From Escherichia coli (GTDB lineage: Bacteria > Pseudomonadota > Gammaproteobacteria > Enterobacterales > Enterobacteriaceae), in NCBI RefSeq assembly GCF_041886205.1, contig NZ_CP169029.1: 64,000 nt of DNA; one strand, written 5' to 3'. Below are positions 21,882 to 49,456 of this stretch, in pieces. Every line of letters begins with the position of its first letter. Position 1 is the stretch's first letter. Under the pieces are notes generated by a model. That model had not been told where the DNA came from. It worked only from the letters and a program-made list of their open reading frames with translations, and searched no databases. A program made the position numbers and the translations under genes.

Positions 21882-22595
21882 GTGAATCAACGTAATATGT
21901 CAATAATTAATTCCACGCCAGTGCGTGTTATTGCCATTGTAGGATGTGATGGTTCAGGTAAATCGACCCTCACGGCAAGCCTGGTAAATAAACTGGCAGC
22001 AAGAATGCCAACAGAACACATTTATCTCGGGCAATCGTCCGGGCGAATTGGCGAATGGATTTCACAGCTCCCTGTTATTGGCGCACCTTTTGGGCGTTAT
22101 TTGCGAAGTAAAGCGGCACATGTACACGAAAAGCCCTCAACACCGCCTGGCAATATTACTGCACTGGTTATCTATCTGCTTTCCTGCTGGCGGGCGTACA
22201 AGTTTCGCAAAATGTTGTGTAAAAGCCAGCAAGGCTATCTGCTCATCACCGACCGCTACCCGCAGGTTGAAGTGCCGGGTTTTCGCTTTGATGGCCCGCA
22301 ATTGGCAAAAACCACGGGCGGTAACGGTTGGATAAAAATGTTAAGGCAGCGCGAGTTGAAGCTGTACCAATGGATGGCGTCTTATTTACCCGTATTGTTG
22401 ATTCGTCTTGGCATTGATGAACAAACCGCGTTTGCGCGTAAACCTGACCACCAACTGGCAGCGTTACAGGAAAAAATCGCCGTTACGCCGCAACTGACGT
22501 TCAACGGTGCCAGGATCCTTGAACTGGATGGTCGGCAACCAGCCGATGAAATTCTGCAAGCGTCACTACGCGCAATTCACGCCGCGCTTTCCTGA
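21882..22595 (+). CDS. yghS: P-loop NTPase/kinase-like protein YghS (237 aa)
   Basis: Walker A IAIVGCDGSGKSTL. Contains DRYPQ and ARKPDH. Paralog of YghT and YghR. Confidence 0.88.
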   Translation: MNQRNMSIINSTPVRVIAIVGCDGSGKSTLTASLVNKLAARMPTEHIYLGQSSGRIGEWISQLPVIGAPFGRYLRSKAAHVHEKPSTPPGNITALVIYLLSCWRAYKFRKMLCKSQQGYLLITDRYPQVEVPGFRFDGPQLAKTTGGNGWIKMLRQRELKLYQWMASYLPVLLIRLGIDEQTAFARKPDHQLAALQEKIAVTPQLTFNGARILELDGRQPADEILQASLRAIHAALS

Positions 22596-22626
22596 TCACC
22601 AAAATGGATAGGGGATGATTTAACGA

Positions 22627-23385
22627 ATGGATGCACTACAAACACAAACTGTTAATAGTACAACCGCGCCGCAGCCCAACTACATTCCGGGGCTGATTGC
22701 GGTGGTCGGGTGTGATGGCACCGGTAAATCCACACTGACCACTGACCTGGTGAAATCGCTGCAACAACACTGGCAAACTGAGCGGCGCTATCTGGGGCTG
22801 CTCTCCGGCGAAGACGGCGACAAAATCAAACGATTGCCGTTGGTTGGCGTCTGGCTGGAACGGCGACTGGCGGCCAAATCCTCGAAAACCCAAAGCATGA
22901 AAACCAAATCTCCGGCGCTATGGGCGGCGGTGATTATGTACTGCTTTTCGCTGCGAAGAATGGCGAATCTACGCAAGGTTCAGCGACTGGCGCAAAGTGG
23001 CGTTCTGGTGGTCAGCGATCGCTTCCCGCAGGCTGAAATTTCGGGCTTTTATTATGACGGACCGGGGATCGGCGTCGAACGTGCGACCGGGAAAATCAGC
23101 ATGTTTCTGGCGCAGCGCGAACGGCGTTTATACCAAAAAATGGCGCAATACCGTCCTGAATTAATCATTCGTTTGGGGATTGATATTGATACTGCCATCT
23201 CCCGCAAGCCTGACCATGACTATGCCGAGCTGCAGGACAAAATCGGCGTCATGTCGACGATTGGCTATAACGGCACAAAAATTCTTGAGATTGATGCCAG
23301 AGCGCCCTACAGCGAAGTGCTGGAACAGGCACAGAAGGCGGTTTCTCTGGTTGCCATCGTTTCTGACCGCCGAAGTTTAACTTAA
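22627..23385 (+). CDS. yghR: P-loop NTPase/kinase-like protein YghR (252 aa)
   Basis: Walker A IAVVGCDGTGKSTL. Contains DRFPQ and SRKPDH. Paralog of YghS and YghT. Confidence 0.88.
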   Translation: MDALQTQTVNSTTAPQPNYIPGLIAVVGCDGTGKSTLTTDLVKSLQQHWQTERRYLGLLSGEDGDKIKRLPLVGVWLERRLAAKSSKTQSMKTKSPALWAAVIMYCFSLRRMANLRKVQRLAQSGVLVVSDRFPQAEISGFYYDGPGIGVERATGKISMFLAQRERRLYQKMAQYRPELIIRLGIDIDTAISRKPDHDYAELQDKIGVMSTIGYNGTKILEIDARAPYSEVLEQAQKAVSLVAIVSDRRSLT

Positions 23386-23430: not shown

Positions 23431-24780
23431 TTGGCGGGTTTTAACATCAAACATTGGTTTGCAGATGGCGCGTTTCGCACCATTATTCGCAATAGCGCCT
23501 GGTTAGGCTCCAGTAATGTCGTGAGCGCCTTGCTGGGGCTGTTGGCGCTCTCGTGTGCCGGTAAAGGGATGACGCCCGCCATGTTTGGCGTACTGGTGAT
23601 TGTGCAATCGTACGCCAAGTCGATCAGCGATTTTATTAAGTTTCAGACATGGCAGTTGGTGGTGCAGTACGGAACGCCAGCCTTGACCAACAATAATCCG
23701 CAGCAATTTCGCAATGTCGTCTCATTTTCCTTCTCGCTGGATATCGTCAGCGGCGCGGTGGCGATTGTCGGCGGCATTGCCTTACTACCATTCCTTTCCC
23801 ATTCATTAGGTCTGGATGACCAAAGTTTTTGGCTGGCGGCGCTGTATTGCACGCTCATTCCTTCAATGGCTTCCTCCACGCCGACCGGCATTCTGCGTGC
23901 GGTAGATCGCTTCGATTTAATTGCTGTACAGCAGGCGACGAAACCTTTTCTGCGCGCAGCGGGGAGCGTCGTAGCCTGGTATTTTGACTTTGGTTTTGCG
24001 GGTTTTGTTATTGCCTGGTACGTGTCGAATCTGGTTGGCGGCACCATGTACTGGTGGTTTGCAGCGCGCGAATTACGCCGCAGAAATATCCATAATGCCT
24101 TCAAATTGAATCTGTTTGAGTCTGCCCGACACATCAAAGGCGCGTGGAGTTTTGTCTGGTCAACCAACATTGCCCACTCCATCTGGTCGGCGCGTAACTC
24201 GTGCAGCACAGTGCTGGTGGGGATCGTGTTAGGACCCGCTGCCGCCGGGTTATTTAAAATCGCCATGACATTCTTCGACGCCGCCGGAACGCCAGCGGGT
24301 TTGCTGGGTAAAAGTTTTTACCCAGAGGTGATGCGTTTAGATCCGCGCACCACCAGACCGTGGTTGTTAGGTGTGAAGTCCGGTTTACTGGCGGGCGGAA
24401 TCGGTATTCTGGTGGCGCTCGCGGTGTTGATCGCCGGCAAGTCGCTCATTTCGCTGGTGTTTGGCGTTAAGTATCTCGAAGCGTATGACCTGATTCAGGT
24501 GATGCTGGGCGCAATTGTGATTTCGATGCTGGGTTTCCCGCAGGAGTCATTGCTATTGATGGCGGGAAAACAGCGCGCTTTTCTCGTGGCGCAAACCATC
24601 GCCTCAATCGGCTACATCGTATTGCTGTTCATGTTCTGTCATCTGTTTGGTGTGCTGGGAGCAGCGTTTGCCTACTTCGGTGGGCAATGTCTGGATGTGG
24701 TGCTCTCGTTAATTCCAACTTTAAAGGCATTTTTTCAGCGTCATTCCTTGCTTTATAACGCAGCCGGAGAGAAATCCTGA
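23431..24780 (+). CDS. yghQ: Polytopic MOP/Wzx-like flippase-family membrane protein YghQ, full-length form (449 aa from a TTG start)
   Basis: About 12 hydrophobic segments throughout. The start is uncertain: TTG at 23431, with the next in-frame ATG in GKGMTPAMFG. Confidence 0.75.
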   Translation: MAGFNIKHWFADGAFRTIIRNSAWLGSSNVVSALLGLLALSCAGKGMTPAMFGVLVIVQSYAKSISDFIKFQTWQLVVQYGTPALTNNNPQQFRNVVSFSFSLDIVSGAVAIVGGIALLPFLSHSLGLDDQSFWLAALYCTLIPSMASSTPTGILRAVDRFDLIAVQQATKPFLRAAGSVVAWYFDFGFAGFVIAWYVSNLVGGTMYWWFAARELRRRNIHNAFKLNLFESARHIKGAWSFVWSTNIAHSIWSARNSCSTVLVGIVLGPAAAGLFKIAMTFFDAAGTPAGLLGKSFYPEVMRLDPRTTRPWLLGVKSGLLAGGIGILVALAVLIAGKSLISLVFGVKYLEAYDLIQVMLGAIVISMLGFPQESLLLMAGKQRAFLVAQTIASIGYIVLLFMFCHLFGVLGAAFAYFGGQCLDVVLSLIPTLKAFFQRHSLLYNAAGEKS

Positions 24781-25604
24781 TGATGAGAAAATATTTCCCG
24801 CTTGAGGCGAGCGAGCGTCTATTTGTTGCGATTGAGGAAGATGATGTCGTTGATGCCCAGGTCAGTTTGCCGCCGACTATTGCACTAAGTTGTACCACCG
24901 AAATCATCCATGATAATTACGCGTTATGCCTGCAGTTCTGGCTCAATGGCGTTAATCGTCAGGAGTTACTGCGTTTAATTCGCAAACAGACCAAAGGCGA
25001 TGAGCTGACGACAGACGAGCGCAAACAGTTTAAATACATGCGAGCGCGCTACAAGCATCTGCGTTTTGCGCAACGGCTATATTTAAAGAAGCATCAGGCC
25101 GGATTTTTATTCGGCAAAACGACCGTTTTTCTGGGGCGTTTTCAGGACGGCTTTCGTAACGGTAAGAAAAATATTGTGTCGTATTACGGTAACCTGTTAC
25201 GGATTTATTTAAGCTCTCCGGTCTGGTCGTTGGTGAACTATTCATTACGCCATAGCCAGTTAGAAAGCGTAAGCGGTTTTATTGCCTATCGGCAAAAGCA
25301 AATGCATGCCCTGAAAGAGATAATTGCCAAACCGCGACTAACCGGCAGGGAATTTCATGATGTGCGAAAAATCATCAGCCAGCAGGTTTCTTATTACGAC
25401 ACCTTAAGATCGCTTGATCCTGAAAATAAAGAGGCGTTACAGGTTTCCCGCTTCCTCGCCGCCATTAATGGCCTGATGGGGGATAAACACGACGACATGG
25501 TGGCGGATGATATGGAAAACCGCCAGTCGTATGATGCACCGGTGGCGCTGGATAGCGATATTCGCCAGCGCTTAGAGCTGCTGATTTCGCGTTTTCCGCT
25601 ATAA
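24780..25604 (+). CDS. Hypothetical soluble protein (274 aa), translationally coupled to yghQ
   Basis: Its ATG overlaps the yghQ TGA (TGATG). Basic and helical with no TM segments. I recognise no family. Confidence 0.6.
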   Translation: MMRKYFPLEASERLFVAIEEDDVVDAQVSLPPTIALSCTTEIIHDNYALCLQFWLNGVNRQELLRLIRKQTKGDELTTDERKQFKYMRARYKHLRFAQRLYLKKHQAGFLFGKTTVFLGRFQDGFRNGKKNIVSYYGNLLRIYLSSPVWSLVNYSLRHSQLESVSGFIAYRQKQMHALKEIIAKPRLTGREFHDVRKIISQQVSYYDTLRSLDPENKEALQVSRFLAAINGLMGDKHDDMVADDMENRQSYDAPVALDSDIRQRLELLISRFPL

Positions 25605-25612
25605 CCGGAGCA

Positions 25613-26176
25613 ATGATGTCATCTCGTTTGATTATTGCGCTGATTATCATGCTCTTAGCCCCGGGTGCGCAGGCACACAATTTCGTCACTGGCAAAACGG
25701 TTACCCCTGTTTATATTCAGGAAGGCGGCGAGCTGCTTCTGAATAGCGACGACGAAATTCACTACCAAAAGTGGAAAAGCACACAATTGGCGGGAAAAGT
25801 CCGCATTATTCAGTATATCGCCGGGCGTAAGTCGGCGAAGAAAAAGAACTCACTGTTAATTAAAGCGGTTGAAGCGGCAAACTTTCCGCAGGATCGTTTT
25901 CAGCCCACCACCATTGTGAACACCGATGATGCCATCTTTGGTACTGGCTATTTTGTTGTTGGCAAAATCGAAAAAAATAAACGCCGCTATCCGTGGGCGC
26001 AATTCGTTATTGACGGCAATGGACTGGGACGCATTGCCTGGCGCTTGCCGGAGCAGAGTTCAACCATTCTGGTGCTGAATAAAGCCGGGCAAATTCAGTG
26101 GGCAAAGGACGGCAGCCTGACGCCGGAAGAGGTAGATCATGTCATTGCGCTGGCGCAGAAGCTGATCAATGAATAA
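25613..26176 (+). CDS. YtfJ-like periplasmic protein with signal peptide (186-187 aa)
   Basis: Signal peptide MMSSRLIIALIIMLLAPGAQA/HN. The rest resembles the YtfJ family. The GGAG RBS favours the second ATG, at 25616. Confidence 0.7.
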   Translation: MMSSRLIIALIIMLLAPGAQAHNFVTGKTVTPVYIQEGGELLLNSDDEIHYQKWKSTQLAGKVRIIQYIAGRKSAKKKNSLLIKAVEAANFPQDRFQPTTIVNTDDAIFGTGYFVVGKIEKNKRRYPWAQFVIDGNGLGRIAWRLPEQSSTILVLNKAGQIQWAKDGSLTPEEVDHVIALAQKLINE

Positions 26177-26205
26177 AAATTCAAAGGATTGAGGGCGTTA
26201 GTGAG

Positions 26206-27276
26206 ATGAAGCTGGTTGAACACTACATCATGCGTGGTACGCGCCGTCTGGTGCTGATTATCGTCGGTTTTCTGATCTTTATTTTCGCCAGCTACTCCGC
26301 ACAGCGTTATCTGACCGAAGCGGCAAATGGGACATTAGCTCTTGATGTTGTGCTGGATATCGTTTTCTACAAAGTGCTGATTGCACTGGAGATGTTGTTA
26401 CCTGTTGGTCTGTATGTGTCAGTTGGCGTGACGCTAGGGCAGATGTATACCGACTCGGAAATTACCGCTATCTCTGCGGCGGGGGGCAGTCCGGGACGCT
26501 TGTACAAAGCCGTTCTTTATCTGGCGATACCGCTAAGTATTTTTGTCACCCTTCTGTCGATGTATGGTCGTCCGTGGGCTTATGCGCAGATTTATCAACT
26601 GGAGCAACAGTCGCAGTCGGAGCTGGATGTTCGCCAGTTGCGGGCAAAGAAATTTAACACTAACGATAACGGACGAATGATCCTTTCGCAGACGGTTGAT
26701 CAGGATAATAATCGCCTGACTGACGCGCTGATTTATACTTCTACTGCCAATCGAACCCGCATTTTCCGCGCCCGTTCGGTTGATGTGGTTGACCCATCAC
26801 CCGAGAAACCGACCGTTATGTTGCATAACGGGACCGCCTATCTTCTCGATCATCAGGGGCGTGACGACAACGAACAGATCTACCGTAATCTGCAATTACA
26901 TCTGAATCCGCTGGATCAAAGCCCTAACGTCAAACGCAAAGCAAAATCGGTCACGGAGCTGGCGCGCTCCGCCTTTCCTGCCGATCATGCCGAACTGCAA
27001 TGGCGACAAAGCCGTGGCCTGACAGCATTGTTGATGGCGCTGCTGGCCATTTCATTAAGTCGGGTAAAACTGCGGCAAGGGCGATTTTCAACATTATTGC
27101 CACTGACGTTGCTGTTTATTGCCATTTTTTATGGCGGCGACGTCTGCCGTACGCTGGTGGCTAACGGCGCGATTCCCCTCATTCCTGGTTTGTGGTTAGT
27201 ACCCGGACTCATGCTAATGGGCCTGCTGATGCTGGTCGCACGCGACTTCTCTTTGCTGCAGAAATTTTCCCGATGA
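26206..27276 (+). CDS. LptF/YjgP-family ABC-type permease paralog (356 aa)
   Basis: Three N-terminal TM segments, a ~150-aa periplasmic beta-rich insert and three C-terminal TM segments, which is the YjgP/YjgQ (LptF/LptG) topology. Confidence 0.75.
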   Translation: MKLVEHYIMRGTRRLVLIIVGFLIFIFASYSAQRYLTEAANGTLALDVVLDIVFYKVLIALEMLLPVGLYVSVGVTLGQMYTDSEITAISAAGGSPGRLYKAVLYLAIPLSIFVTLLSMYGRPWAYAQIYQLEQQSQSELDVRQLRAKKFNTNDNGRMILSQTVDQDNNRLTDALIYTSTANRTRIFRARSVDVVDPSPEKPTVMLHNGTAYLLDHQGRDDNEQIYRNLQLHLNPLDQSPNVKRKAKSVTELARSAFPADHAELQWRQSRGLTALLMALLAISLSRVKLRQGRFSTLLPLTLLFIAIFYGGDVCRTLVANGAIPLIPGLWLVPGLMLMGLLMLVARDFSLLQKFSR

Positions 27277-28352
27277 ATGTTTTCAGTCGCTATTTAATCC
27301 GTCATCTCTTTCTCGGTTTTGCCGCCGCCGCAGGGCTATTGCTGCCGCTTTTTACCACCTTCAACCTGATTAACGAACTGGATGATGTCAGCCCGGGCGG
27401 TTATCGCTGGACTCAGGCGGTGCTGGTGGTGCTAATGACCTTACCGCGCACACTGGTCGAACTTTCGCCATTTATCGCCTTATTGGGAGGGATTGTCGGC
27501 CTGGGGCAGTTATCGAAAAACAGTGAGCTTACCGCCATTCGCAGCATGGGGTTTTCTATCTTCCGTATTGCACTGGTGGCACTGGTTGCAGGGATATTGT
27601 GGACTGTTTCGTTAGGCGCGATAGATGAGTGGGTGGCGTCGCCATTGCAGCAACAGGCGTTGCAAATCAAATCGACCGCCACCGCGTTGGGGGAGGACGA
27701 TGACATTACCGGCAATATGCTGTGGGCCAGGCGTGGTAATGAATTTGTGACGGTGAAATCGCTGAACGAGCAGGGCCAGCCGGTGGGCGTGGAGATTTTT
27801 CATTATCGTGACGATCTCTCGCTCGAATCCTACATTTATGCACGCAGTGCCACCATTAAAGACGACAAAATGTGGATCCTGCATGGTGTGAATCATAAAA
27901 AATGGCTTAACGGTAAAGAAACGCTGGAAACATCAGATAATCTTGCCTGGCAATCTGCCTTCACCAGTATGGATCTTGAAGAGTTATCGATGCCGGGGAA
28001 TACTTTTTCTGTCTGTCAGCTTAATCATTACATCCATTATTTGCAGGAAACCGGGCAACCCAGCAGCGAATACCGCCTTGCACTGTGGGAAAAACTGGGG
28101 CAACCCATCCTGACCCTGGCGATGATTTTGCTGGCTGTACCGTTTACCTTTAGCGCCCCGCGCTCGCCAGGGATGGGTAGCCGTCTCGCTGTAGGCGTCA
28201 TCGTTGGCTTACTCACCTGGATCAGCTATCAAATCATGGTCAATCTGGGATTGCTATTTGCGTTAAGCGCACCTGTTACCGCGCTCGGTTTACCGATAGC
28301 GTTTGTGCTGGTGGCGTTGAGCCTGGTGTATTGGTATGACAGACAACATTAA
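27273..28352 (+). CDS. LptG/YjgQ-family ABC-type permease paralog (359 aa)
   Basis: Sits in ORF 27192..28352. The start MNVFSRYLIRHLFLGF at 27273 overlaps the upstream stop (ATGA). Same 3+3 TM topology with a central periplasmic domain. Confidence 0.75.
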   Translation: MNVFSRYLIRHLFLGFAAAAGLLLPLFTTFNLINELDDVSPGGYRWTQAVLVVLMTLPRTLVELSPFIALLGGIVGLGQLSKNSELTAIRSMGFSIFRIALVALVAGILWTVSLGAIDEWVASPLQQQALQIKSTATALGEDDDITGNMLWARRGNEFVTVKSLNEQGQPVGVEIFHYRDDLSLESYIYARSATIKDDKMWILHGVNHKKWLNGKETLETSDNLAWQSAFTSMDLEELSMPGNTFSVCQLNHYIHYLQETGQPSSEYRLALWEKLGQPILTLAMILLAVPFTFSAPRSPGMGSRLAVGVIVGLLTWISYQIMVNLGLLFALSAPVTALGLPIAFVLVALSLVYWYDRQH

Positions 28353-28353
28353 A

Positions 28354-28380
28354 CCCGCCGTGGCGCAACACCACGACGGG
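28354..28380. terminator. Hairpin in the 34-nt gap between the convergent operons
   Basis: CCCGCCGTGG (28354-28363), loop CGCAACA, CCACGACGGG (28371-28380). One mismatch and no strong T tract. Confidence 0.4.
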
Positions 28381-28386
28381 CTCACA

Positions 28387-29559
28387 TTACTGCTTCAGAG
28401 TAGCAAATGTCTGAATGATGGCATCGATTTGCTCACGACTGTGGGCAGCGTTTACGCTACAGCGCAGCAGCGTAATGCCCGCAGGCGCGGCAGGCGGCAG
28501 GATAAGATTCACATACACGCCCAGCGAGATAAGCTCGCGCCAGATGCGCAACCCTTCCTCTTTCGAACCGATTATTACCGGCACTACCGGGCTAATATGT
28601 GAACTTAACTCATAACCCAGTTTTTGCAGACCGTCATACAGATGGTTGGCGTTATCCATCAGCTTTTGCCGCAGCTCTGGTTGTGAGGCAATGGTTCTTA
28701 ACGATGAGCGCACGGTCGCAATGCAGGACGGAGAAGGAGAGGCGGTAAAAATATACGGGCGGCTGCCGTAGCGCAGCACTTCCATCGCTTCCGAACCGAC
28801 AGCAAAACCGCCAATCGAGGCCAGACTTTTACTGAAAGTACCAACGATAATATCCACATCATCTTCAACGCCGACAGCTTCAGCCAGTCCACGCCCCGTT
28901 GCACCTAACACGCCAAACGAATGCGCTTCATCGACAATCAAATAACCACCGAGACGACGTTTGATATCAACAATTTCCGCCAGCGGCGCAACGTCACCGA
29001 GCATGCTGTAGATGCCCTCAACGATGATAATCGCCTCTTTCGCCCGTTCACCGAGGCGAACCATGCGCCGTTCCAGATCTTTAGCATCGTTATGGCGGAA
29101 ACGAATAATTTCCGCGCCACCGAGAGAACAGGCGTCATAAATACTGGCGTGGCTGTCGGCATCCAGTAACACCACGGCGTTATGGTCGGCAAGTGCGCTG
29201 ATGACGCCTAAATTAGCGGTATAACCGGTTGAAAAAACGATAGCGGTAGGGCGATTGAAAAACTCGGCAATCTCTTTCTCTAACGCCAGGTGCGGCGCAT
29301 AACTGCCGTTTGCCATACGAGAACCGGTGGTGCCGGTGCCTTGGGCCGCTAACGCTGCCTGACCTTCGGCGATGGCATCATGATTAAAGGTTAAACCGAG
29401 ATAATTATTGGTCCCGGCCAGAATCACTTTTTTATTGCCGATCCGACCTTCGGTGGCGGAATACACTTCATCAATACAGGTGCCAAACGGTGTTAACCCG
29501 TTGTCACTAAATTGCAGTCGCTCGCCAGCAAGGCGCGCATATTTATCGTATAGCCCCAT
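28387..29559 (-). CDS. PLP-dependent alpha-oxoamine synthase, serine palmitoyltransferase-like (390 aa)
   Basis: AOS family (BioF/Kbl/SPT). The PLP-lysine motif GTFSKSLASIGGF is closest to the bacterial SPT-type GTFSKS signature. The start overlaps the ACP stop (TAATG). Confidence 0.85.
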   Translation of the reverse strand: MGLYDKYARLAGERLQFSDNGLTPFGTCIDEVYSATEGRIGNKKVILAGTNNYLGLTFNHDAIAEGQAALAAQGTGTTGSRMANGSYAPHLALEKEIAEFFNRPTAIVFSTGYTANLGVISALADHNAVVLLDADSHASIYDACSLGGAEIIRFRHNDAKDLERRMVRLGERAKEAIIIVEGIYSMLGDVAPLAEIVDIKRRLGGYLIVDEAHSFGVLGATGRGLAEAVGVEDDVDIIVGTFSKSLASIGGFAVGSEAMEVLRYGSRPYIFTASPSPSCIATVRSSLRTIASQPELRQKLMDNANHLYDGLQKLGYELSSHISPVVPVIIGSKEEGLRIWRELISLGVYVNLILPPAAPAGITLLRCSVNAAHSREQIDAIIQTFATLKQ

Positions 29560-29807
29560 TATTTATTCTCCAGCCATGGAAGTAGAGCTTCCATTAATTG
29601 CGCAGGGGTTTTGACATCCAGCAGAATATTAATAGGAATGGAAATATCGAATCTGTCTTCCAGCATCATTAAGAGATCCATCACTTTGATCGACTCCAGG
29701 CCAAGATCGTTGACGAGATCGCTGTCGGGCTTAATTTCCACACCGTTTTCGACCAAATCCTGTAAACAGGAAAGGATGTAATCCATTACTATTTCACGAT
29801 TTACCAT
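29559..29807 (-). CDS. Dedicated acyl carrier protein (82 aa)
   Basis: DLGLESIKVMDLLMMLE matches the ACP phosphopantetheine-attachment helix (DLGxDSLxxVEL) with the Ser retained. Small and acidic. Confidence 0.8.
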   Translation of the reverse strand: MVNREIVMDYILSCLQDLVENGVEIKPDSDLVNDLGLESIKVMDLLMMLEDRFDISIPINILLDVKTPAQLMEALLPWLENK

Positions 29808-29838
29808 AGAAACGTTAACACACCTTTAAACAAGACAA

Positions 29839-30753
29839 TCAAAATAGCCCGTTGCGTAATGCGTGTTCCAGGCTAATCCCGGGAAACCAATTAATATCTT
29901 CAGAAATACGGTTATTATTTGCCGACCAGTCGGCGTGGGTTAATTCACGAATTTTCGAGCGGGTCAGCATAGGTTCTTTACCTGCCAGGCGACTCAACGC
30001 AGTACTGATATCCGCAAGGCAGGTGAGTACCGGCAGAGGAATGCCAACCATCCGCACAGAACCACAACGGGCTTCGGCGGCAAGCTGTCGTACGCGTTGC
30101 CAGTCATAGCCGCCAGCGACGCCATCGCATAATTCATAGGTTTGCGTCTGTACAGTTTCGGCGCTTAACCACTGACCCACGGCTTGCGCGAAATCGGTGA
30201 CGTGCAGGAAAGAGAGCTGTGTATCTGGCGCACCAAGTCGTGGCAGCAGGCCGCGCAGCATCCAGTCAAACAGCGGTTTTAACTCTTTATCGCCTGGACC
30301 ATACACGGCTGTCGGGCGAAAAACGCCCAGCGTAATTTCATCAGCCATTGCAGTCAGCCGTTGTTCGGCGACGTGTTTGGAATTTGCGTACCAGGAGAGT
30401 TCGGGATGGCGCGCCGCCAGCGAAGAGATAAACAGAAAACGTTGGCAAAAGCCGCTCTCTTTTGCCGCTTGCATCAGGCGCAGGCTGCCGTCAACGTTAC
30501 AGCGGGTAAAAATCTCTTCTTTGTGCCCGCGCACTTGCCCGGCGCAATGGACCACCGCGCTGGCTCCGGCAACCAGTTCGCTAAGTGAATGAGTATCTTC
30601 CAGCGAACCGCGCACCCAGATGAGATTGTCATTGACGTGAGCGCGGGCAGTACGCGTCAATGCGCGAACGTGAAAGCCGCGGGCGAGCAGGTTATCGATA
30701 ATATATTTACCGATAAACCCGGTAGCGCCCGTCACCGCGACAGTTTGATTCAT
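29839..30753 (-). CDS. NAD(P)-dependent epimerase/dehydratase-family reductase (extended SDR, 304 aa)
   Basis: VTGATGFIGKYI Rossmann motif and YANSK (YxxxK) catalytic motif. The start overlaps the upstream stop (ATGA). Confidence 0.85.
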   Translation of the reverse strand: MNQTVAVTGATGFIGKYIIDNLLARGFHVRALTRTARAHVNDNLIWVRGSLEDTHSLSELVAGASAVVHCAGQVRGHKEEIFTRCNVDGSLRLMQAAKESGFCQRFLFISSLAARHPELSWYANSKHVAEQRLTAMADEITLGVFRPTAVYGPGDKELKPLFDWMLRGLLPRLGAPDTQLSFLHVTDFAQAVGQWLSAETVQTQTYELCDGVAGGYDWQRVRQLAAEARCGSVRMVGIPLPVLTCLADISTALSRLAGKEPMLTRSKIRELTHADWSANNNRISEDINWFPGISLEHALRNGLF

Positions 30754-32471
30754 GCCAGGGATTCCTGCACATGAAGGCTTTCAGCATAAGCCTTCTGATA
30801 ACGTTTTTTCGCTTCCGCATGGGCAGGCTTGCCGGAGGACGTTCGGGGAATACTGTGGGGCGGCAACAGATCGATAGCCGCGGTCACGCCAAATTCGCTT
30901 TGGATCCGTGCTGCCAGCGCGTGGATAAGCTGCCCGCGACGTTCTTCATCGCTGATCCGACACTGGATCTGCAAAATGATTTTTTCCTGGGCGGTAACAA
31001 AAGCAATCGCATCGCCAGAATGAATTTCCGGTTCCTGTTCCGCAATATATTCAATATCCTGCGGCCAGATATTACGGCCACGAATAATAATCAGATCTTT
31101 AATGCGTCCGGTGACATACAGATAACCGTCCAGCAGATAACCGAGGTCGCCGGTGTCTAACCAGCCCGTCGCGGCAATCTCGTCTTGCGAAGCCTGGTCG
31201 CCAAAGTAACCGCTCATCAGGCTAGGGCCGGAGATGCAAATATGGCCTACCACACGTTCCGCGACAGGTATACCTGCTTCATTGCGGATTTCAATGCCAT
31301 GTTCCGGCAACGCTTTACCGCAGTTGACGAAAGTCGATACGGCGCGTGTTTCAGCACCCGGCGCGACGGCTTTACCGTGGTATTCGAGGATGTCGCGATC
31401 CACTTCGTTAACCATAACCCCGGAGGTTTCATCAGAGAAGCTGACAGCCAGCGCATTTTCTGCCAGTCCGTAGCACGGCATGAAAGTTTTATCGTCAAAG
31501 TTAACCTGACGGAAACATTCAGCGAATTGATGGAGTTGTTCTGCGGAGATGGGTTCTGCACCAATACCAGCGACGCGCCAGGAGGAAAGATCCAGTTCTG
31601 CGAGATCTTTTTCATTCACGCGGCGCTGGCACAATTCATAGCCAAACGGCGGCGCAACGGAAACGGTGCCGCGATTTTTACTGATCAATTTAAGCCATTG
31701 CAGAGGACGCATGGCAAAATCCTGAGTGCGCAAATAATCTACTGAAAGCTGCGTGGCGACGGGGGTCAGGAGAAAGCCGACCAGTCCCATATCATGGTAG
31801 AAAGGCAGCCAGGAGACGCAGCGGTCGCCAGGGCGTAATTTAATGCCATCGTGGCTTATAGCACGTAGATTAGCCATCACTTCGCGATGGGTGATAATGA
31901 CGCCACGGGGAAAACGGGTGCTGCCGGAGGTGTATTGGAGGTAGGCGATATCGTCCGGAACTGGGCGCTGGAGCGCAACATCGGCTTCCGGTAATGCCTT
32001 AAACCAGGCGTGGCTTAAAACATGTAATTCGGGATTGTTATGCGTCGCAGCATTGACCAGCGGTAACCACTCATCACCAGTGATAATGGCTGCGGGCTGG
32101 CAACTTGCCAGTAAACCCTGCAGTTTGGCGCTCCAGGAATCCCGCTGACCGACGCCCATTGGAATCGCCAACGGGACGGCGACTAAGCCGGCATACTGGC
32201 AGGCAAAAAAAGCCTCTACGAACCCGCTACTGGTTTCGGCAATCAGCGCCACGCGATCGCCTTTTTTCAGGTTCAGCGATAACAACCGCTTCGCACCAGC
32301 TTCGGCACGCGCTTTTAACGTCTGATATTCCAGTTGATCTTCAAGTTGGCAACGTCTGTCATAAAAATTCATTCCATCGCTACTCAGAGCGGCGTAGTCC
32401 AAAGCATCAACCAGCGTTGGAAAATCGGCATAGCGCATAGGTAGGGAATGCGTAAAGATTTTATTAGACAT
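30750..32471 (-). CDS. Fatty acyl-AMP ligase / acyl-ACP synthetase-type adenylating enzyme (573 aa)
   Basis: Sits in ORF 30750..32498. Start MSNKIFTHSLPMRYADF at 32471. AMP-binding motif YLQYTSGSTRFPRGV. Overall FAAL-like layout. Confidence 0.85.
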   Translation of the reverse strand: MSNKIFTHSLPMRYADFPTLVDALDYAALSSDGMNFYDRRCQLEDQLEYQTLKARAEAGAKRLLSLNLKKGDRVALIAETSSGFVEAFFACQYAGLVAVPLAIPMGVGQRDSWSAKLQGLLASCQPAAIITGDEWLPLVNAATHNNPELHVLSHAWFKALPEADVALQRPVPDDIAYLQYTSGSTRFPRGVIITHREVMANLRAISHDGIKLRPGDRCVSWLPFYHDMGLVGFLLTPVATQLSVDYLRTQDFAMRPLQWLKLISKNRGTVSVAPPFGYELCQRRVNEKDLAELDLSSWRVAGIGAEPISAEQLHQFAECFRQVNFDDKTFMPCYGLAENALAVSFSDETSGVMVNEVDRDILEYHGKAVAPGAETRAVSTFVNCGKALPEHGIEIRNEAGIPVAERVVGHICISGPSLMSGYFGDQASQDEIAATGWLDTGDLGYLLDGYLYVTGRIKDLIIIRGRNIWPQDIEYIAEQEPEIHSGDAIAFVTAQEKIILQIQCRISDEERRGQLIHALAARIQSEFGVTAAIDLLPPHSIPRTSSGKPAHAEAKKRYQKAYAESLHVQESLA

Positions 32472-32842
32472 ATACACCACGAAAAAATTGGATATCAAAA
32501 ATAAAATGACAATAATGCGGTGGATTATATAGGCATAAAAGATAAATGAGATAGTATTTTCATCAGTGTGAAAATGAACATTGATTTATATAATGAGTTT
32601 GAGTTTTTTTGTTTTTATTGTGAATGATATTTAATTTATGAATATATTAAGAAGAAGCCTTGTCCGGTCGCCTTAAATCGACAAAAGGCATTGTGGCGCT
32701 TCTGTGTAGTCGCTGACCCTATCGTAATCATTAATAAATACTATTTATTCGTCGTTTGTATCCATTGGGTTGATTATTAAGGTGCCGTTCGTTGCTGTTG
32801 CAACCTGTTTGTCACCGTTAATTATTTGTTACCCACAGAACT

Positions 32843-33985
32843 ATGGAATGCGATCTGCTGATGATTAAAATTGAAAAAGTAATTAATAAAAATGACCTTA
32901 AGGCATTTATCGCTTTTCCGTCATCACTTTATCCCGACGATCCAAACTGGATACCCCCTTTATTCATTGAACGCAACGAGCATTTGTCTGCGAAAAATCC
33001 GGGGACGGACCATATCATCTGGCAGGCGTGGGTGGCAAAAAAAGCGGGGCAGATAGTTGGGCGTATTACCGCGCAAATAGATACCTTGCACCGCGAGCGT
33101 TACGGCAAAGATACCGGTCATTTCGGCATGATTGACGCCATTGATGATCCGCAGGTTTTTGCCGCGTTGTTTGGCGCAGCGGAAGCGTGGTTGAAGTCAC
33201 AAGGTGCAAGTAAGATCAGCGGTCCTTTCAGCCTGAATATCAATCAGGAAAGCGGATTACTGATTGAAGGTTTCGATACACCACCCTGTGCGATGATGCC
33301 GCACGGTAAACCGTGGTATGCCGCGCATATTGAACAATTGGGTTATCACAAAGGCATTGATTTACTGGCGTGGTGGATGCAGCGAACCGATCTCACTTTC
33401 TCTCCGGCGCTAAAAAAACTGATGGATCAGGTGCGTAAGAAGGTGACCATTCGCTGCATCAATCGCCAGCGGTTTGCCGAAGAGATGCAGATCCTGCGTG
33501 AGATTTTCAACTCTGGCTGGCAGCACAACTGGGGATTTGTGCCGTTTACCGAACATGAATTCGCGACCATGGGCGATCAACTTAAATATCTGGTGCCGGA
33601 CGATATGATCTACATCGCTGAGATTGATTCTGCACCCTGCGCGTTTATTGTCGGCTTGCCAAACATCAACGAGGCGATTGCCGATCTGAACGGATCGCTC
33701 TTTCCCTTCGGCTGGGCAAAATTGCTGTGGCGTTTGAAAGTCAGCGGTGTGCGAACTGCGCGAGTGCCGCTGATGGGCGTGCGGGACGAGTATCAGTTCA
33801 GCCGCATCGGCCCGGTGATTGCGCTGTTATTGATTGAAGCCTTACGCGATCCGTTTGCCCGCCGGAAGATCGATGCGCTGGAGATGTCATGGCTCCTCGA
33901 AACCAATACAGGCATGAATAACATGCTGGAACGCATTGGGGCAGAGCCGTACAAGCGTTACCGATTGTATGAAAAGCAAATTTAA
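32843..33985 (+). CDS. yghO: GNAT-like N-acyltransferase YghO, intact (374-380 aa)
   Basis: Recognised as YghO. The alternative start MIKIEKVINK is at 32861. Divergent from the FAAL operon across an AT-rich region. Confidence 0.8.
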   Translation: MECDLLMIKIEKVINKNDLKAFIAFPSSLYPDDPNWIPPLFIERNEHLSAKNPGTDHIIWQAWVAKKAGQIVGRITAQIDTLHRERYGKDTGHFGMIDAIDDPQVFAALFGAAEAWLKSQGASKISGPFSLNINQESGLLIEGFDTPPCAMMPHGKPWYAAHIEQLGYHKGIDLLAWWMQRTDLTFSPALKKLMDQVRKKVTIRCINRQRFAEEMQILREIFNSGWQHNWGFVPFTEHEFATMGDQLKYLVPDDMIYIAEIDSAPCAFIVGLPNINEAIADLNGSLFPFGWAKLLWRLKVSGVRTARVPLMGVRDEYQFSRIGPVIALLLIEALRDPFARRKIDALEMSWLLETNTGMNNMLERIGAEPYKRYRLYEKQI

Positions 33986-43919: not shown

Positions 43920-45416
43920 ATGGAAGAAAACACAAGGCAGCGTACAGAAAATTATATTTCAGCAAAAAACCAGCATCCCGCCTGGATACTCCTTGCCACT
44001 CGCCGTGCTCCACTGGTATTGAGTTGCCTGAAAACGCTTTTTGAAAAATCACATGATGGCATTCCCCTTGAGGAAGCTATTCAGTCTCTTTCCAGTATTC
44101 TCATTGAGCATGTGAGTCAGGAACAGTATGACATTAATCAGGACAATCCATTTCTTCAGGCCAGTCGTGAACTGCGGGAGTGGATTAAACGCCGTTTAAT
44201 TGTCGAACGGGATGGCCGTATTTTTGCTACCGATGCGCTTGAGGTCGCGATTACGTTTGTAGAGTCTCTGGATAATCGTTTTATGACCTCTACGGCTTCC
44301 CGTTTGTCCACCGTTCAGCGAGAAATTGAAAACCTGGAAACACGGCTTAATCCTAACCCGGCAAACCGGGTTGCAACCTTACGTCGTCGTATTTCTGAAC
44401 TGGAACGCGAACTACAGGAGGCAGAAGCCGGGCATATTGAGGTGCTGGAAACGCACCAGGCGGTTGAGCATATTCGTGAGGTCTACAATTTAGCTTCCAG
44501 CCTGCGGGCTGACTTTCGTCGTGTTGAAGACTCCTGGCGTGAGGCTGACCGCGCTCTTCGCCAATCCATTATTGGTGAGCAATATCATCGCGGCGATATA
44601 GTAGAACGCCTGCTCAACGATCAGGACGCGCTGCTTAATACGCCGGAAGGAAGAGTTTTCGACAGCTTTCAGCAACAGCTCCGTCAATCTTCTGAACTTA
44701 AAGCGATGAGTGAACGATTACGTGTGATCCTTAGCCATCCTTCTGCTTCTGATGCGCTTAACCGTCTACAGCGTCACGATCTGCGCTGGCTGGTTAAACG
44801 TCTGGTCGATGAATCGCAAACTGTCCTCCAGGCTCGCGCCCGTAGCGAGCGTGATGTCCGTGGTTTCATGAAAACCGGTCTTGCTGCTGAACATCATCGT
44901 GTTGGTCATTTGCTTAATGAGTTTCTGAATCTGGCGTTAAAACTCGACTGGCAGCGCCAGATGATTCGTAAACAAGAGGTGCCGCTACCTGCCGTTGGTG
45001 TGGCGGTAACAGGCATCCCCGCTATTGAACGTTTACGTTTTAAAGAGGTGGATGATGAAGCAGAGCAGACGTTGGATCTCAGTAATCATGCGGCGGATTT
45101 AACGCAGATTGGCGATGATTTCTGGGATGCCTTCAATGGCCTCGATCGTGAGGTGTTGATTCAGCAGACGTTGCAGCTTCTTGCAAAAGAAAATCGCCCC
45201 GTTGGCCTGGCTGAACTGGCGGCGCTGTTACCCCCGGCTCACGATCTCGAAACATTCGCCGTCTGGATTGGTATGGCAAGAGAAGCGGGTATTGAGGTTA
45301 TTGATTCACAGCGTGAATTTGCAGAGCTTAGTGATGGGGAAGGTCGCCGCTGGCGATTTAATCTGCCCACCACCGGTCTGGAAAGTCAGGCATTAATGGA
45401 TATCGATTGGGAGTAA
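43920..45416 (+). CDS. jetA: Wadjet JetA (DUF3375-like, kleisin-like subunit, 498 aa)
   Basis: First gene of a 4-gene coupled operon. Helical protein of matching size, in the position of JetA/MksF-like DUF3375 proteins. Confidence 0.8.
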   Translation: MEENTRQRTENYISAKNQHPAWILLATRRAPLVLSCLKTLFEKSHDGIPLEEAIQSLSSILIEHVSQEQYDINQDNPFLQASRELREWIKRRLIVERDGRIFATDALEVAITFVESLDNRFMTSTASRLSTVQREIENLETRLNPNPANRVATLRRRISELERELQEAEAGHIEVLETHQAVEHIREVYNLASSLRADFRRVEDSWREADRALRQSIIGEQYHRGDIVERLLNDQDALLNTPEGRVFDSFQQQLRQSSELKAMSERLRVILSHPSASDALNRLQRHDLRWLVKRLVDESQTVLQARARSERDVRGFMKTGLAAEHHRVGHLLNEFLNLALKLDWQRQMIRKQEVPLPAVGVAVTGIPAIERLRFKEVDDEAEQTLDLSNHAADLTQIGDDFWDAFNGLDREVLIQQTLQLLAKENRPVGLAELAALLPPAHDLETFAVWIGMAREAGIEVIDSQREFAELSDGEGRRWRFNLPTTGLESQALMDIDWE

Positions 45417-45421
45417 CAGGT

Positions 45422-46171
45422 ATGACGGGCTTTTTTGACAGGCTGATTAACCGGAGCGTTACCGCAAATGCAGGCTGTGAACCAGAACCATCGGATGAGG
45501 AGGTTACCGATGAGTCGGTTGAAGAAAGTTTGGCCAGTAGTGAAACGCGGACGCTAAAAAAAATACGTGAAGCGACTCAGGAATTGCTCAAATACGGCCT
45601 GCTGGAAGAGGCCAGTAAGCCCAATCTGTACCGCATCGTACTGAGCCATCCTGAAGAGGTTACTCGTATTCTGGAGCCTCTCGATCTGGATATCGGCATT
45701 GATGAGATCCGTGGCCTGCTGTATGTCAAAGTCAGGCTTGATGAAACGCCTGCGCAGGATGAATGGGCCCACCCTCTGGTGAGGCGGCAACGACTAAACC
45801 TGGAACAATCTTTATTAGTTGCCATACTGCGCCAACATTTTGTGGCCTGGGAGCAGGAAAGCGGAACCGGTGCCAGTCAGGCACAGATCGCCATCGATGA
45901 TCTTCTCCCTCAACTCCAGATTTATCTTGGCGACCCGGGCAGTGAATCAAAAGAACGCACCCGATTGCTTACCCTGCTGGATCAATTAAAGGGGCATGGG
46001 CTGGTGACGTCGCCGGATGCACATGAGCGGATCGTCATCCGTCCGATCATTGCTCATCTTGCCGATCCGATCAATCTTCAGGCATTACTGGCATGGCTGC
46101 GAGAGCAAATTGCCCAGCAAACCTCTCCAAATGACGCGCGAGAAAAGGATAGCAGCGAGGAGGACGTATGA
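45422..46171 (+). CDS. jetB: Wadjet JetB (DUF4194-like, MksE/KITE-like subunit, 249 aa)
   Basis: Sits in ORF 45407..46171. ATG at 45422, 8 nt after a GGAG. Acidic N- and C-terminal tails (EPEPSDEEVTDESVEESL, DSSEEDV). Ends in an ATGA overlap with jetC. Confidence 0.8.
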   Translation: MTGFFDRLINRSVTANAGCEPEPSDEEVTDESVEESLASSETRTLKKIREATQELLKYGLLEEASKPNLYRIVLSHPEEVTRILEPLDLDIGIDEIRGLLYVKVRLDETPAQDEWAHPLVRRQRLNLEQSLLVAILRQHFVAWEQESGTGASQAQIAIDDLLPQLQIYLGDPGSESKERTRLLTLLDQLKGHGLVTSPDAHERIVIRPIIAHLADPINLQALLAWLREQIAQQTSPNDAREKDSSEEDV

Positions 46172-49455: not shown

Positions 49456-49456
49456 G

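What the first reader, a model, noticed from the sequence alone, without database searches (positions are those of the whole stretch)
23431..28352. A second LptF/LptG-type permease pair with a flippase and a YtfJ-like periplasmic protein, but no ABC ATPase
**Seen in the sequence**
- One plus-strand operon encodes, in order, a Wzx/MOP-like polytopic protein and an unknown 274-aa protein, coupled by a TGATG overlap. A signal-peptide YtfJ-like protein follows.
- It ends with two coupled (ATGA overlap) permeases with a 3-TM, periplasmic domain, 3-TM layout, typical of the YjgP/YjgQ (LptF/LptG) family.
- No ABC nucleotide-binding subunit is encoded anywhere in 21-34 kb. The three P-loop proteins nearby lack an LSGGQ-type signature.

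**Inference**
- The pair either borrows housekeeping LptB or uses a different energy source.
- Because the operon is convergent with the SPT-like lipid operon, it is a plausible extraction and export route carrying that lipid to the outer membrane. That would parallel LPS transport.
Basis: partly seen in the sequence, partly recalled or inferred. Interest (0 to 1): 0.62.

Follow-up and report, generated by a model that had tools for sequence, protein, structure and literature searches.

The report
E. coli sphingolipid-locus LptF/LptG paralogues
Most E. coli strains, though not K-12, carry a second LptF/LptG membrane-permease pair inside their ceramide-synthesis gene cluster; it most likely uses the housekeeping LptB ATPase to pull a sphingolipid out of the inner membrane, a model already published for Caulobacter, so the finding is real and well read but not new.

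Summary
The window is E. coli chromosome (gss-pitB-yghTSR ... yghO-glcC). Positions 23431-28352 encode YghQ (a MOP/Wzx-type flippase), a 274-aa protein, a YtfJ-family periplasmic protein, and an LptF/LptG pair. The pair is only 28-30% identical to housekeeping LptF/LptG. No ABC ATPase is encoded anywhere in the 64 kb.

The housekeeping pair is in 5425 of 5426 complete E. coli genomes and this extra pair in 4091. K-12 lost it through an IS5-associated deletion.

In 77 of 80 species-level loci the pair lies within 10 kb of spt-acpR-cerR-aasR-yghO (ceramide synthesis). Both coupling-helix glutamates that dock LptB are conserved. The LptG lysines that bind lipid A phosphates (K34, K40, K41) are replaced by N/D/E.

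Olea-Ozuna 2024 proposed LptF2/G2 as sphingolipid transporters. Uchendu, Isom and Klein (bioRxiv, April 2026) showed that Caulobacter LptF2G2 bind LptB, and they draw the E. coli UTI89 locus.

New here: the 274-aa protein has a predicted CHAD fold. YtfJ2 has a predicted cysteine-free thioredoxin fold. The flippase/CHAD/YtfJ triad is specific to Enterobacterales; in Pseudomonas and Azotobacter an MsbA-like exporter and CPG-type head-group genes stand in its place.

The parts
21016..21708 (-). yghT, a P-loop protein weakly related to dTMP kinase. It is part of the enterobacterial version of the cluster.
   Evidence: Has a Walker A motif and no LSGGQ. Weak Thymidylate_kin/TIGR00041 matches below cut-off. 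RefSeq names it yghT. Co-located with the cluster in 34 of 49 loci with a complete triad.
21882..22595 (+). yghS, a P-loop paralogue of yghT and yghR.
   Evidence: The three paralogues cross-hit one another.
22627..23385 (+). yghR, a P-loop paralogue.
23431..24780 (+). yghQ, a MOP/Wzx-type polytopic membrane protein and the candidate flippase for the cluster's lipid.
   Evidence: PF01943 Polysacc_synt E=3e-10, 40.4 bits against a cut-off of 28.2. Same family (IPR002797) as the Caulobacter candidate sphingolipid flippase CC_1166. Truncated by IS5 in K-12. dN/dS 0.02-0.03.
24780..25604 (+). 274-aa cytoplasmic all-helical protein with a predicted CHAD-like fold, translationally coupled to yghQ.
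25613..26176 (+). ytfJ2, a secreted YtfJ-family protein with a predicted thioredoxin-like fold and no cysteine.
26206..27276 (+). lptF2, an LptF-type permease (6 TM plus a periplasmic domain).
   Evidence: TIGR04407 314 bits against 230; PF03739 covers 2-352 of 353. Aligns over residues 4-353 to the solved LptF 6mjp_F. 29.6% identical to K-12 LptF. The E84 equivalent is kept.
27273..28352 (+). lptG2, an LptG-type permease in an ATGA overlap with lptF2.
   Evidence: TIGR04408 306 bits against 240. Aligns over residues 3-351 to E. coli LptG 6mhu_G. 27.9% identical to K-12 LptG. The E88 equivalent is kept; K34/K40/K41 become N/D/D.
28350..28384 (.). Hairpin with a 16-bp stem in the 34-nt gap between the convergent lptG2 and spt genes; a likely bidirectional terminator.
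   Evidence: Best terminator-like hit of the region: 16 pairs, 9 of them G-C. This is a consensus scan only.
28387..29559 (-). spt, serine palmitoyltransferase.
   Evidence: NF047599 599.7 bits against a cut-off of 500. The BL21 orthologue ECD_02854 makes 3-oxo-sphinganine (PMC9386255).
29559..29807 (-). acpR, the specialised acyl carrier protein.
   Evidence: PP-binding E=9e-14. PMC9386255.
29839..30753 (-). cerR/epi, an SDR-type reductase.
   Evidence: Epimerase/NmrA families. PMC9386255 Fig. 9 legend.
30750..32498 (-). aasR, an acyl-AcpR synthetase (fatty acyl-AMP ligase).
   Evidence: NF006624 870 bits. PMC9386255. RefSeq uses a later start, giving 562 aa.
32843..33985 (+). yghO, equated in the literature with aca/bCerS (the N-acyltransferase).
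   Evidence: No Pfam hit. PMC9386255 lists yghO ECD_02850 as aca. Present in most loci.

Best explanation
lptF2-lptG2 are the membrane subunits of a second, non-essential LptB2FG-type extractor dedicated to the sphingolipid made by the adjacent cluster (spt-acpR-cerR-aasR plus yghO). The proposed sequence is as follows.
- Ceramide is made on the cytoplasmic face, and its head group is built by cluster-specific enzymes. In Enterobacterales these are probably the P-loop proteins YghR/S/T and the CHAD-like 274-aa protein.
- The lipid is flipped across the inner membrane by the MOP-type YghQ.
- LptF2G2 then bind it in the outer leaflet and expel it towards the outer membrane, powered by the housekeeping LptB dimer docked on their conserved coupling helices.
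- It probably continues over the shared LptC/A/D/E bridge.

Shown here: gene content, paralogy, genomic linkage, conservation of the LptB-docking glutamates, and loss of the lipid A phosphate-binding lysines.

Inferred: the use of LptB, the direction and substrate of transport, and the roles of YghQ, YtfJ2 and the CHAD-like protein.
For: **Family membership**
- Full-length matches to the LptF and LptG equivalog models, above cut-off.
- Alignment to solved LptF/LptG chains over almost the whole length, including the periplasmic domain.
- A 3+3 TM layout.

**Accessory paralogue**
- Housekeeping lptFG is in 5425/5426 E. coli genomes and this pair in 4091.
- K-12 lost it through an IS5-associated deletion.

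**Linkage to ceramide synthesis**
- 77/80 loci, in at least four arrangements.

**No linked LptB-type ATPase**
- None in either locus architecture.
- LptF E84 and LptG E88 equivalents are kept in 79/79 and 79/80 orthologues.
- The coupling-helix stretches are 12/21 and 9/21 identical to K-12, against 24-28% overall in the same alignment (85/347 for LptF, 98/355 for LptG).

**Substrate differs from LPS**
- Tang 2019 (PMC6744409) lists the LPS contacts.
- LptG K34 becomes N/D/T, K40 becomes D/E, K41 becomes D and R133 becomes L/Q/M. LptF K322 becomes N.
- LptG K62 (as R), LptG R136 (as K/R), LptF R33 and LptF K317 (as R/K) stay basic.
- K34E is lethal in the housekeeping LptG.

**Flippase role of YghQ**
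- Loci without the YghQ triad have an MsbA-like fused ABC exporter next to spt instead.
- Caulobacter CC_1166 belongs to the same Polysacc_synt family and shows cofitness with CC_1156, its LptF2.

**Experiments elsewhere**
- Caulobacter LptF2/G2 bind each other and LptB, and can be deleted only when spt or cpgB is absent.
- E. coli BL21 Spt, AcpR and AasR make 3-oxo-sphinganine when expressed.

**Purifying selection**
- All five genes have low dN/dS.
Against: - No sphingolipid has been reported from wild-type E. coli in the papers I found. BL21 carries the cluster, yet empty-vector controls showed no 3-oxo-sphinganine. The locus may therefore be silent under laboratory conditions.
- Interaction with LptB is extrapolated from an alphaproteobacterium. 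Its LptF2/G2 are only about 24-33% identical to the sphingolipid-locus pairs of other taxa.
- The E. coli locus has no LptC2 and none of the CPG head-group genes, so the substrate is unknown.
- LptG2 carries an acidic patch where LptG is basic. How that would fit an anionic phosphosphingolipid is unexplained.
- No 3-D model of the LptF2G2 complex was made here.
Confidence: 0.75

Rival explanations
1. The pair is a redundant or specialised LPS exporter, as the RefSeq names 'LPS export ABC transporter permease LptF/LptG' imply. It might, for example, serve a modified LPS.
For: Both proteins pass the NCBIfam equivalog cut-offs for LptF and LptG and are annotated that way in RefSeq. Several cavity residues are kept: LptF R33, F26 and K317 (as R); LptG R136 (as K) and Y257.
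Against: - The TM1 lysine cluster of LptG that contacts both lipid A phosphates and the inner core is replaced by N/D/E in all 80 orthologues. K34E is lethal in LptG.
- The pair is dispensable: it is absent from K-12 and from about a quarter of E. coli genomes.
- It travels with spt rather than with LPS genes.
Confidence: 0.07
2. The locus is an evolutionary remnant in E. coli. It would be transcriptionally silent or non-functional, and the permeases would do nothing.
For: No native E. coli sphingolipid is reported in the papers found. BL21 controls make no 3-oxo-sphinganine. K-12 and many other strains have lost the locus.
Against: - dN/dS is 0.02-0.14 for all genes across Escherichia species, with no internal stops.
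- All 13 genes of the enterobacterial cluster (three P-loop genes, triad, lptF2G2, five ceramide genes) are present within 10 kb in 18 of 80 loci (the E. coli-type arrangement). The triad and lptF2G2 are present in all 53 enterobacterial loci.
- The E. coli enzymes are active when expressed.
Confidence: 0.1
3. The pair is energised by something other than LptB. Candidates are the neighbouring P-loop proteins YghR/S/T; alternatively it could be a passive scaffold.
For: Three P-loop genes sit immediately upstream in E. coli. No NBD is encoded in the locus.
Against: - YghR/S/T resemble nucleoside-monophosphate kinases, not ABC NBDs. They have no signature motif and no full ABC_tran match.
- They are missing within 10 kb of the pair in the Rosenbergiella loci and in most Pseudomonas and Azotobacter loci.
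- The conserved coupling-helix glutamates point to a canonical NBD partner.
- The Caulobacter homologues bind LptB.
Confidence: 0.04

Closest known systems
Caulobacter crescentus LptF2/LptG2 (CCNA_01214/CCNA_01213; CC_1156/CC_1155), with LptC2 and the candidate flippase CC_1166
   Same: - A second LptF/LptG pair inside the sphingolipid locus, with no lptB of its own.
- A Polysacc_synt (MOP) flippase candidate sits in the same locus.
- The E. coli UTI89 locus is drawn beside it in Fig. 2B of the 2026 preprint.
   Different: - The E. coli locus has no LptC2.
- It has none of the CPG head-group genes: no cpgB-type DAGK-like ceramide kinase, CDP-OH transferase or MobA-like NTP transferase (no window hits).
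- Instead it has three P-loop proteins, a CHAD-like protein and YtfJ2.
- Direct sequence comparison with the Caulobacter proteins could not be made here.
Canonical LptB2FGC LPS extractor of E. coli, Shigella and Enterobacter (PDB 6MHU, 6S8H, 6MIT)
   Same: - Same family and same 6-TM plus periplasmic-domain layout.
- Conserved coupling-helix Glu.
- Some cavity residues are kept.
   Different: - Only 28-30% identity.
- The LptG K34/K40/K41/R133 and LptF K322 contacts to lipid A phosphates and core are lost or charge-reversed.
- Non-essential and strain-variable.
- Linked to spt rather than to pepA/holC.
CPG-type sphingolipid loci of Azotobacter vinelandii, Pseudomonas luteola and Nitrosomonas eutropha (Olea-Ozuna et al. 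2024)
   Same: - LptG2 is 46-59% identical to the E. coli protein.
- Same spt-acpR-cerR-aasR-yghO core next to lptF2G2.
   Different: These loci carry an MsbA-like fused ABC exporter, NTP_transf_3, CDP-OH_P_transf and a DAGK_cat kinase. They lack YghQ, the CHAD-like protein and YtfJ2.
Sphingomonas wittichii sole LptFG (Swit_3905/3906)
   Same: An LptFG pair next to sphingolipid genes, proposed to move sphingolipid rather than LPS.
   Different: It is the only LptFG in an organism without LPS. In E. coli the pair coexists with a housekeeping LPS pair.

Membership tests
LptF/LptG (YjgP/YjgQ) permease family, PF03739 | Full-length match to the family and to the LptF- and LptG-specific equivalog models, above curated cut-offs | tested here: met
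   PF03739 E=3e-53 and 3e-69, covering 2-352 and 1-352 of 353. TIGR04407 314 bits against 230. TIGR04408 306 bits against 240.
LptF/LptG (YjgP/YjgQ) permease family, PF03739 | Six TM helices (3+3) around a periplasmic beta-jellyroll domain | tested here: met
   Hydropathy gives 3+3 segments with a hydrophilic insert of about 150 aa, as in K-12 LptF/G. Residues 4-353 and 3-351 align to the solved chains 6mjp_F and 6mhu_G across the periplasmic domain. The jellyroll itself is inferred from homology; no 3-D model was built.
LptF/LptG (YjgP/YjgQ) permease family, PF03739 | Coupling helix with the conserved glutamate that docks into LptB (LptF E84, LptG E88; residue roles from my own knowledge of the Lpt literature) | tested here: met
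   LptF2 E85 and LptG2 E85 align to E84 and E88. Kept in 79/79 and 79/80 orthologues.
Functional LPS exporter (LptB2FG sensu stricto) | Basic residues that bind the lipid A 1'- and 4'-phosphates and the inner core (LptG K34, K40, K41, K62, R133, R136; LptF R33, K317, K322; Tang 2019) | tested here: not met
   K34 becomes N/D/T, K40 becomes D/E, K41 becomes D, R133 becomes L/Q/M, and LptF K322 becomes N in all or nearly all of 80 orthologues. Only K62 (as R), R136 (as K/R), LptF R33 and K317 (as R/K) remain basic.
Functional LPS exporter (LptB2FG sensu stricto) | Essential and universally present in the species | tested here: not met
   Intact in 4091 of 5426 complete E. coli genomes, against 5425 for housekeeping lptFG. 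Deleted in K-12.
Sphingolipid-locus LptF2/LptG2 (Olea-Ozuna 2024; Uchendu, Isom and Klein 2026) | An extra LptF/LptG pair encoded within or next to the spt/bcerS/cerR locus | tested here: met
   Convergent with spt across a 34-nt gap in the window. 77/80 related loci have ceramide genes within 10 kb.
Sphingolipid-locus LptF2/LptG2 (Olea-Ozuna 2024; Uchendu, Isom and Klein 2026) | No dedicated LptB paralogue in the locus | tested here: met
   No ABC NBD in the 64-kb window. In the other loci the only linked NBD belongs to a fused MsbA-like exporter.
Sphingolipid-locus LptF2/LptG2 (Olea-Ozuna 2024; Uchendu, Isom and Klein 2026) | Physical interaction with housekeeping LptB; deletion tolerated only when sphingolipid synthesis is off | not testable with these tools
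   Shown for Caulobacter only.
Sphingolipid-locus LptF2/LptG2 (Olea-Ozuna 2024; Uchendu, Isom and Klein 2026) | Orthology by sequence to CCNA_01213/01214 | not tested
   The Caulobacter sequences could not be fetched. The link is indirect: the E. coli protein is 46-48% identical to the A. vinelandii and P. luteola LptG2, whose loci that paper aligns with the Caulobacter cluster.
YtfJ_HI0045 family (PF09695) | Full-length HMM match above cut-off | tested here: met
   199 bits against 24. TIGR01626 214 bits against 151. 54% identical to K-12 YtfJ.
CHAD domain (PF05235) | Sequence match to the Pfam model | tested here: not met
   No CHAD hit even at E<=10.
CHAD domain (PF05235) | Two-bundle all-helical CHAD fold | tested here: met

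The most novel reading that the evidence does not exclude
The enterobacterial version of the locus makes and exports a sphingolipid with a head group unlike Caulobacter's ceramide (di)phosphoglycerate. In this reading:
- the head group is built by three nucleotide-kinase-like P-loop proteins (YghR/S/T) and a divergent CHAD-fold protein, a fold otherwise known as a polyphosphate-binding module;
- the lipid is flipped by YghQ;
- it is handled in the periplasm by a cysteine-free thioredoxin-fold protein (YtfJ2), which has a basic AGRxSAKKxN pocket where CxxC would sit;
- it is then extracted by LptF2G2 with LptB.

This would mean that about three quarters of E. coli strains can place a so far unseen phosphorylated sphingolipid in their outer membrane. 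It would also give the YtfJ family its first function.
Probability: 0.25. Interest if true: 0.7.

Novelty: already known. Interest (0 to 1): 0.38.

Why it matters
- How bacteria move sphingolipids to the outer membrane was an open question until 2024-2026.
- The locus shows that the best-studied bacterium carries the same machinery in most natural strains. K-12 lost it to an IS5-associated deletion, which explains why it was overlooked.
- E. coli could serve as a tractable system for three questions: LptB sharing between two extractors, substrate selection by the TM1 cluster of LptG, and whether LptC/A/D/E are shared.
- RefSeq names both pairs 'LPS export permease', which is probably wrong for this pair.
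- The identity of the E. coli lipid, the conditions under which it is made, and the roles of YtfJ2 and the CHAD-like protein remain open.

Tried and rejected
- **Housekeeping lptFG with lptB elsewhere.** I first suspected this, which would have made the finding trivial. It is rejected: the housekeeping pair is at another locus in 5425/5426 genomes, and this pair is only 28-30% identical to it.
- **YghR/S/T as homologues of the Caulobacter ceramide kinase CpgB.** Rejected. CpgB is a DAGK-type kinase with a GGDG motif, and DAGK_cat genes occur only in the Pseudomonas/Azotobacter loci.
- **YtfJ2 as an LptC/LptA-like jellyroll.** Rejected. The model is thioredoxin-like, though its confidence is only moderate (pLDDT 73, and the five models disagree).
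Rejected. It is a fused TMD-NBD type I exporter, and it occurs where YghQ is absent, which fits a flippase role.
- **Searches that led nowhere.** PDB sequence search for YtfJ2 found nothing meaningful. Pfam found nothing for the 274-aa protein or for YghO. Literature searches for yghQ and YtfJ found no functional study.
- The afdb50 fold library was not available.
- **Reaching Caulobacter or Sphingomonas LptG2.** The representative search gave mostly unnamed metagenomic proteins. Only Pseudomonas and Methyloversatilis were named, so no family tree was built.
- **Promoter scan.** It gave no more hits than shuffled sequence.

Full report
**Identity of the window.** The region 23431-28352 is 100% identical to E. 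coli strain 6EVA and 95-99% identical to thousands of other E. coli chromosomes. The gene order is hyb - yghU - gss - pitB - yghT - yghS - yghR - [finding] - spt operon - yghO - glcC - glcDEFGBA. The finding therefore lies in the yghQ-yghO interval. In K-12 that interval is occupied by an IS5 element flanked by a truncated yghQ and by yghO. K-12 has lost everything from the 3' end of yghQ through aasR.

**Check of the observation.** Five co-directional genes are present as described.
- yghQ (449 aa) matches Polysacc_synt. Its stop overlaps the start of a 274-aa ORF as TGATG.
- A YtfJ-family protein follows, with an N-terminal signal sequence.
- LptF-type and LptG-type permeases come next, overlapping as ATGA.
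- Both permeases exceed the NCBIfam equivalog cut-offs. They align over nearly their whole length to solved LptF/LptG chains and have the 3-TM / periplasmic domain / 3-TM layout.
- No ABC nucleotide-binding domain is present in the whole 64 kb. The three upstream P-loop proteins (YghT/S/R) resemble dTMP kinases only weakly and lack an ABC signature.

**Is it really a second pair?** Yes.
- K-12 lptF-lptG lie next to pepA. That DNA is found in 5425 of 5426 complete E. coli genomes.
- The pair in the window is found intact in 4091 genomes.
- It is only 29.6% (F) and 27.9% (G) identical to the housekeeping proteins.
- dN/dS between Escherichia species is 0.04-0.06 (lptF2), 0.05 (lptG2), 0.02-0.03 (yghQ), 0.07-0.10 (274-aa gene) and 0.10-0.14 (ytfJ2). 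The genes are therefore maintained by selection.

**Genomic context across species.** A scan of one genome per species returned 80 loci with LptG2 relatives, 46-97% identical.
- In 77 of them at least one ceramide-synthesis gene (spt, acpR, cerR, aasR, yghO) lies within 10 kb. Two of the three exceptions are truncated by contig ends.
- Architecture A covers the 53 enterobacterial loci: Escherichia, Shimwellia, Sodalis, Serratia, Pluralibacter, Pseudocitrobacter, Citrobacter, Erwinia, Pantoea, Mangrovibacter, Klebsiella indica, Rahnella, Tatumella and Rosenbergiella. Here yghQ, the 274-aa gene and ytfJ2 always travel as one unit. The unit occurs in at least four positions and orientations relative to lptF2G2 and spt, so the single operon seen in E. 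coli is only one arrangement.
- Architecture B covers the 27 loci from Pseudomonas, Azotobacter, Azomonas, Stutzerimonas, a Xanthomonas sp., an Azorhizophilus, and Porticoccaceae and unclassified Pseudomonadota MAGs. Profile searches find none of the three triad genes.
- Instead, architecture B has an MsbA/HepA-like fused ABC exporter directly downstream of spt. A MobA-like NTP transferase lies between yghO and lptF2. A CDP-alcohol phosphatidyltransferase and a DAGK-type kinase lie just after lptG2.
- This is the ceramide-phosphoglycerate type of locus that Olea-Ozuna et al. 2024 described for A. vinelandii, P. luteola and N. eutropha.
- Neither architecture encodes a stand-alone LptB-type ATPase.
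- A MOP flippase and an MsbA-like exporter occupy equivalent places in loci that otherwise share the core. That is the best argument here that YghQ is the flippase of the system.
- Caulobacter's candidate flippase CC_1166 belongs to the same Polysacc_synt family and shows cofitness with its LptF2.

**Sequence features bearing on mechanism.**
- The coupling-helix glutamates (LptF E84, LptG E88) are aligned and conserved: E85 in both window proteins, and 79/79 and 79/80 orthologues.
- The surrounding helix is more conserved than the protein as a whole (12/21 and 9/21 identical). This fits docking of a canonical NBD.
- The cavity differs. Tang et al. 2019 list the residues that contact lipid A phosphates and the inner core.
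- Of these, LptG K34, K40, K41 and R133 and LptF K322 are replaced by N/D/T, D/E, D, L/Q/M and N respectively throughout the clade. LptG I66 becomes D/E/N.
- LptG K62 (as R), LptG R136 (as K/R), LptF R33 and LptF K317 (as R/K) remain basic.
- K34E is lethal in housekeeping LptG, so LptG2 is unlikely to carry LPS.
- The retained basic residues would still suit a lipid with one anionic group. I cannot explain the acidic TM1 patch.

**The two uncharacterised proteins.**
- The 274-aa protein has no family match. It has about 343 homologues; all but one of the source-named ones among the 120 listed are enterobacterial.
- It has no hydrophobic segment. It also carries invariant His, Arg and Lys residues.
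- By analogy with CHAD domains, which are known as polyphosphate-binding modules (my own knowledge), it may bind a phosphate-rich ligand. This is a lead, not a result.
- YtfJ2 is 54% identical to K-12 YtfJ. Its model has moderate confidence (pLDDT 73, and the five models disagree).
- The invariant A-G-R-x-S-A-K-K-x-N motif lies at the strand-helix junction where such proteins carry CxxC. It is not a jellyroll like LptA or LptC.
- I found no functional study of the YtfJ family.

**Literature.**
- The E. coli BL21 genes ECD_02850-02854 (yghO, aasR, epi/cerR, acpR, spt) were studied by the Geiger laboratory. Co-expressed Spt, AcpR and AasR make 3-oxo-sphinganine (PMC9386255).
- Olea-Ozuna et al. 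2024 named second versions of LptC, LptF and LptG plus a flippase in the Caulobacter locus. They proposed that these move phosphosphingolipids to the outer membrane (PMC11324152).
- Uchendu, Isom and Klein (bioRxiv 10.64898/2026.04.12.717747) showed that lptF2, lptG2 and lptC2 can be deleted only when spt or cpgB is absent.
- They also showed that LptF2 and LptG2 form a complex and that both bind the single LptB.
- Their Fig. 2B shows the E. coli UTI89 locus. They state that lptF2/G2 occur in many alpha- and gammaproteobacterial sphingolipid loci, while lptC2 is confined to Caulobacter.

**Verdict.** It is already known in kind, and this very locus has been depicted. I score interest as modest.

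Three things are not in the papers I found:
- the enterobacterial accessory module (YghQ, the CHAD-like protein and YtfJ2, usually with YghR/S/T) and its replacement by other genes in Pseudomonadales;
- the clade-wide loss of the lipid A-binding lysines of LptG;
- the predicted folds of the two unknown proteins.

The unknowns are the E. coli lipid itself, when it is made, and what YtfJ2 does.

Noticed in passing
window 43920-50605 (+): A complete Wadjet (JetABCD) anti-plasmid system: DUF3375, DUF4194, a 1095-aa SMC-like ATPase, and DUF3322 plus JetD_C. It lies downstream of glcA and is absent from strain 6EVA at this position. The window therefore comes from another strain carrying an island here.
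   Followed up: partly
window 51662-52666 (-), 56093-56911 (-), 60491-63685 (-): An IS110-family transposase, a DUF932 protein and an AIDA/Ag43-type autotransporter with an ESPR signal. These are island-type cargo following the Wadjet genes.
   Followed up: no
L090 (K-12 MG1655 3130146-3132408), equivalent to window ~24500-32800: In K-12 an IS5 (insH9) sits between a 1068-nt yghQ remnant and yghO. This IS5-associated deletion removed the 274-aa gene, ytfJ2, lptF2, lptG2, spt, acpR, cerR and aasR.
   Followed up: yes
window 21016-23385: YghT, YghS and YghR are three mutually related P-loop proteins, only weakly similar to dTMP kinase and named 'dTMP kinase' in RefSeq. They accompany the sphingolipid cluster in 34 of the 49 loci with a complete triad, and copies also occur in some Pseudomonas loci. 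They are not homologues of the DAGK-type ceramide kinase CpgB. They may be lipid or head-group kinases.
   Followed up: partly
window 28350-28384: A strong 16-bp-stem hairpin fills the 34-nt gap between the convergent lptG2 and spt genes. It is probably a bidirectional terminator.
   Followed up: no
window 28387-29559 (-): The E. coli serine palmitoyltransferase scores best against the NCBIfam model named for Betaproteobacteria: NF047599 at 600 bits, against 430 for the alpha-type model. LptG2 also has a 44%-identical relative in Methyloversatilis. This hints at exchange of the locus between beta- and gammaproteobacteria.
   Followed up: no
proteins P0022, P0153 and P0259: Some E. coli records hold chimeric proteins: GspC fused to LptG2, GspM fused to the 274-aa protein, and YtfJ fused to LptF. 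These suggest strain-specific deletions joining the nearby type II secretion genes to this locus, or annotation artefacts.
   Followed up: no
L051 (E. coli ECMA0423, CP178302.1): Every gene of the locus is broken into many short ORFs. This looks like an error-rich assembly rather than real decay.
   Followed up: no
RefSeq annotation of the locus: PGAP names both this pair and the housekeeping pair 'LPS export ABC transporter permease LptF/LptG'. The equivalog models do not separate the sphingolipid-locus clade, so the name is probably misleading for this pair.
   Followed up: partly
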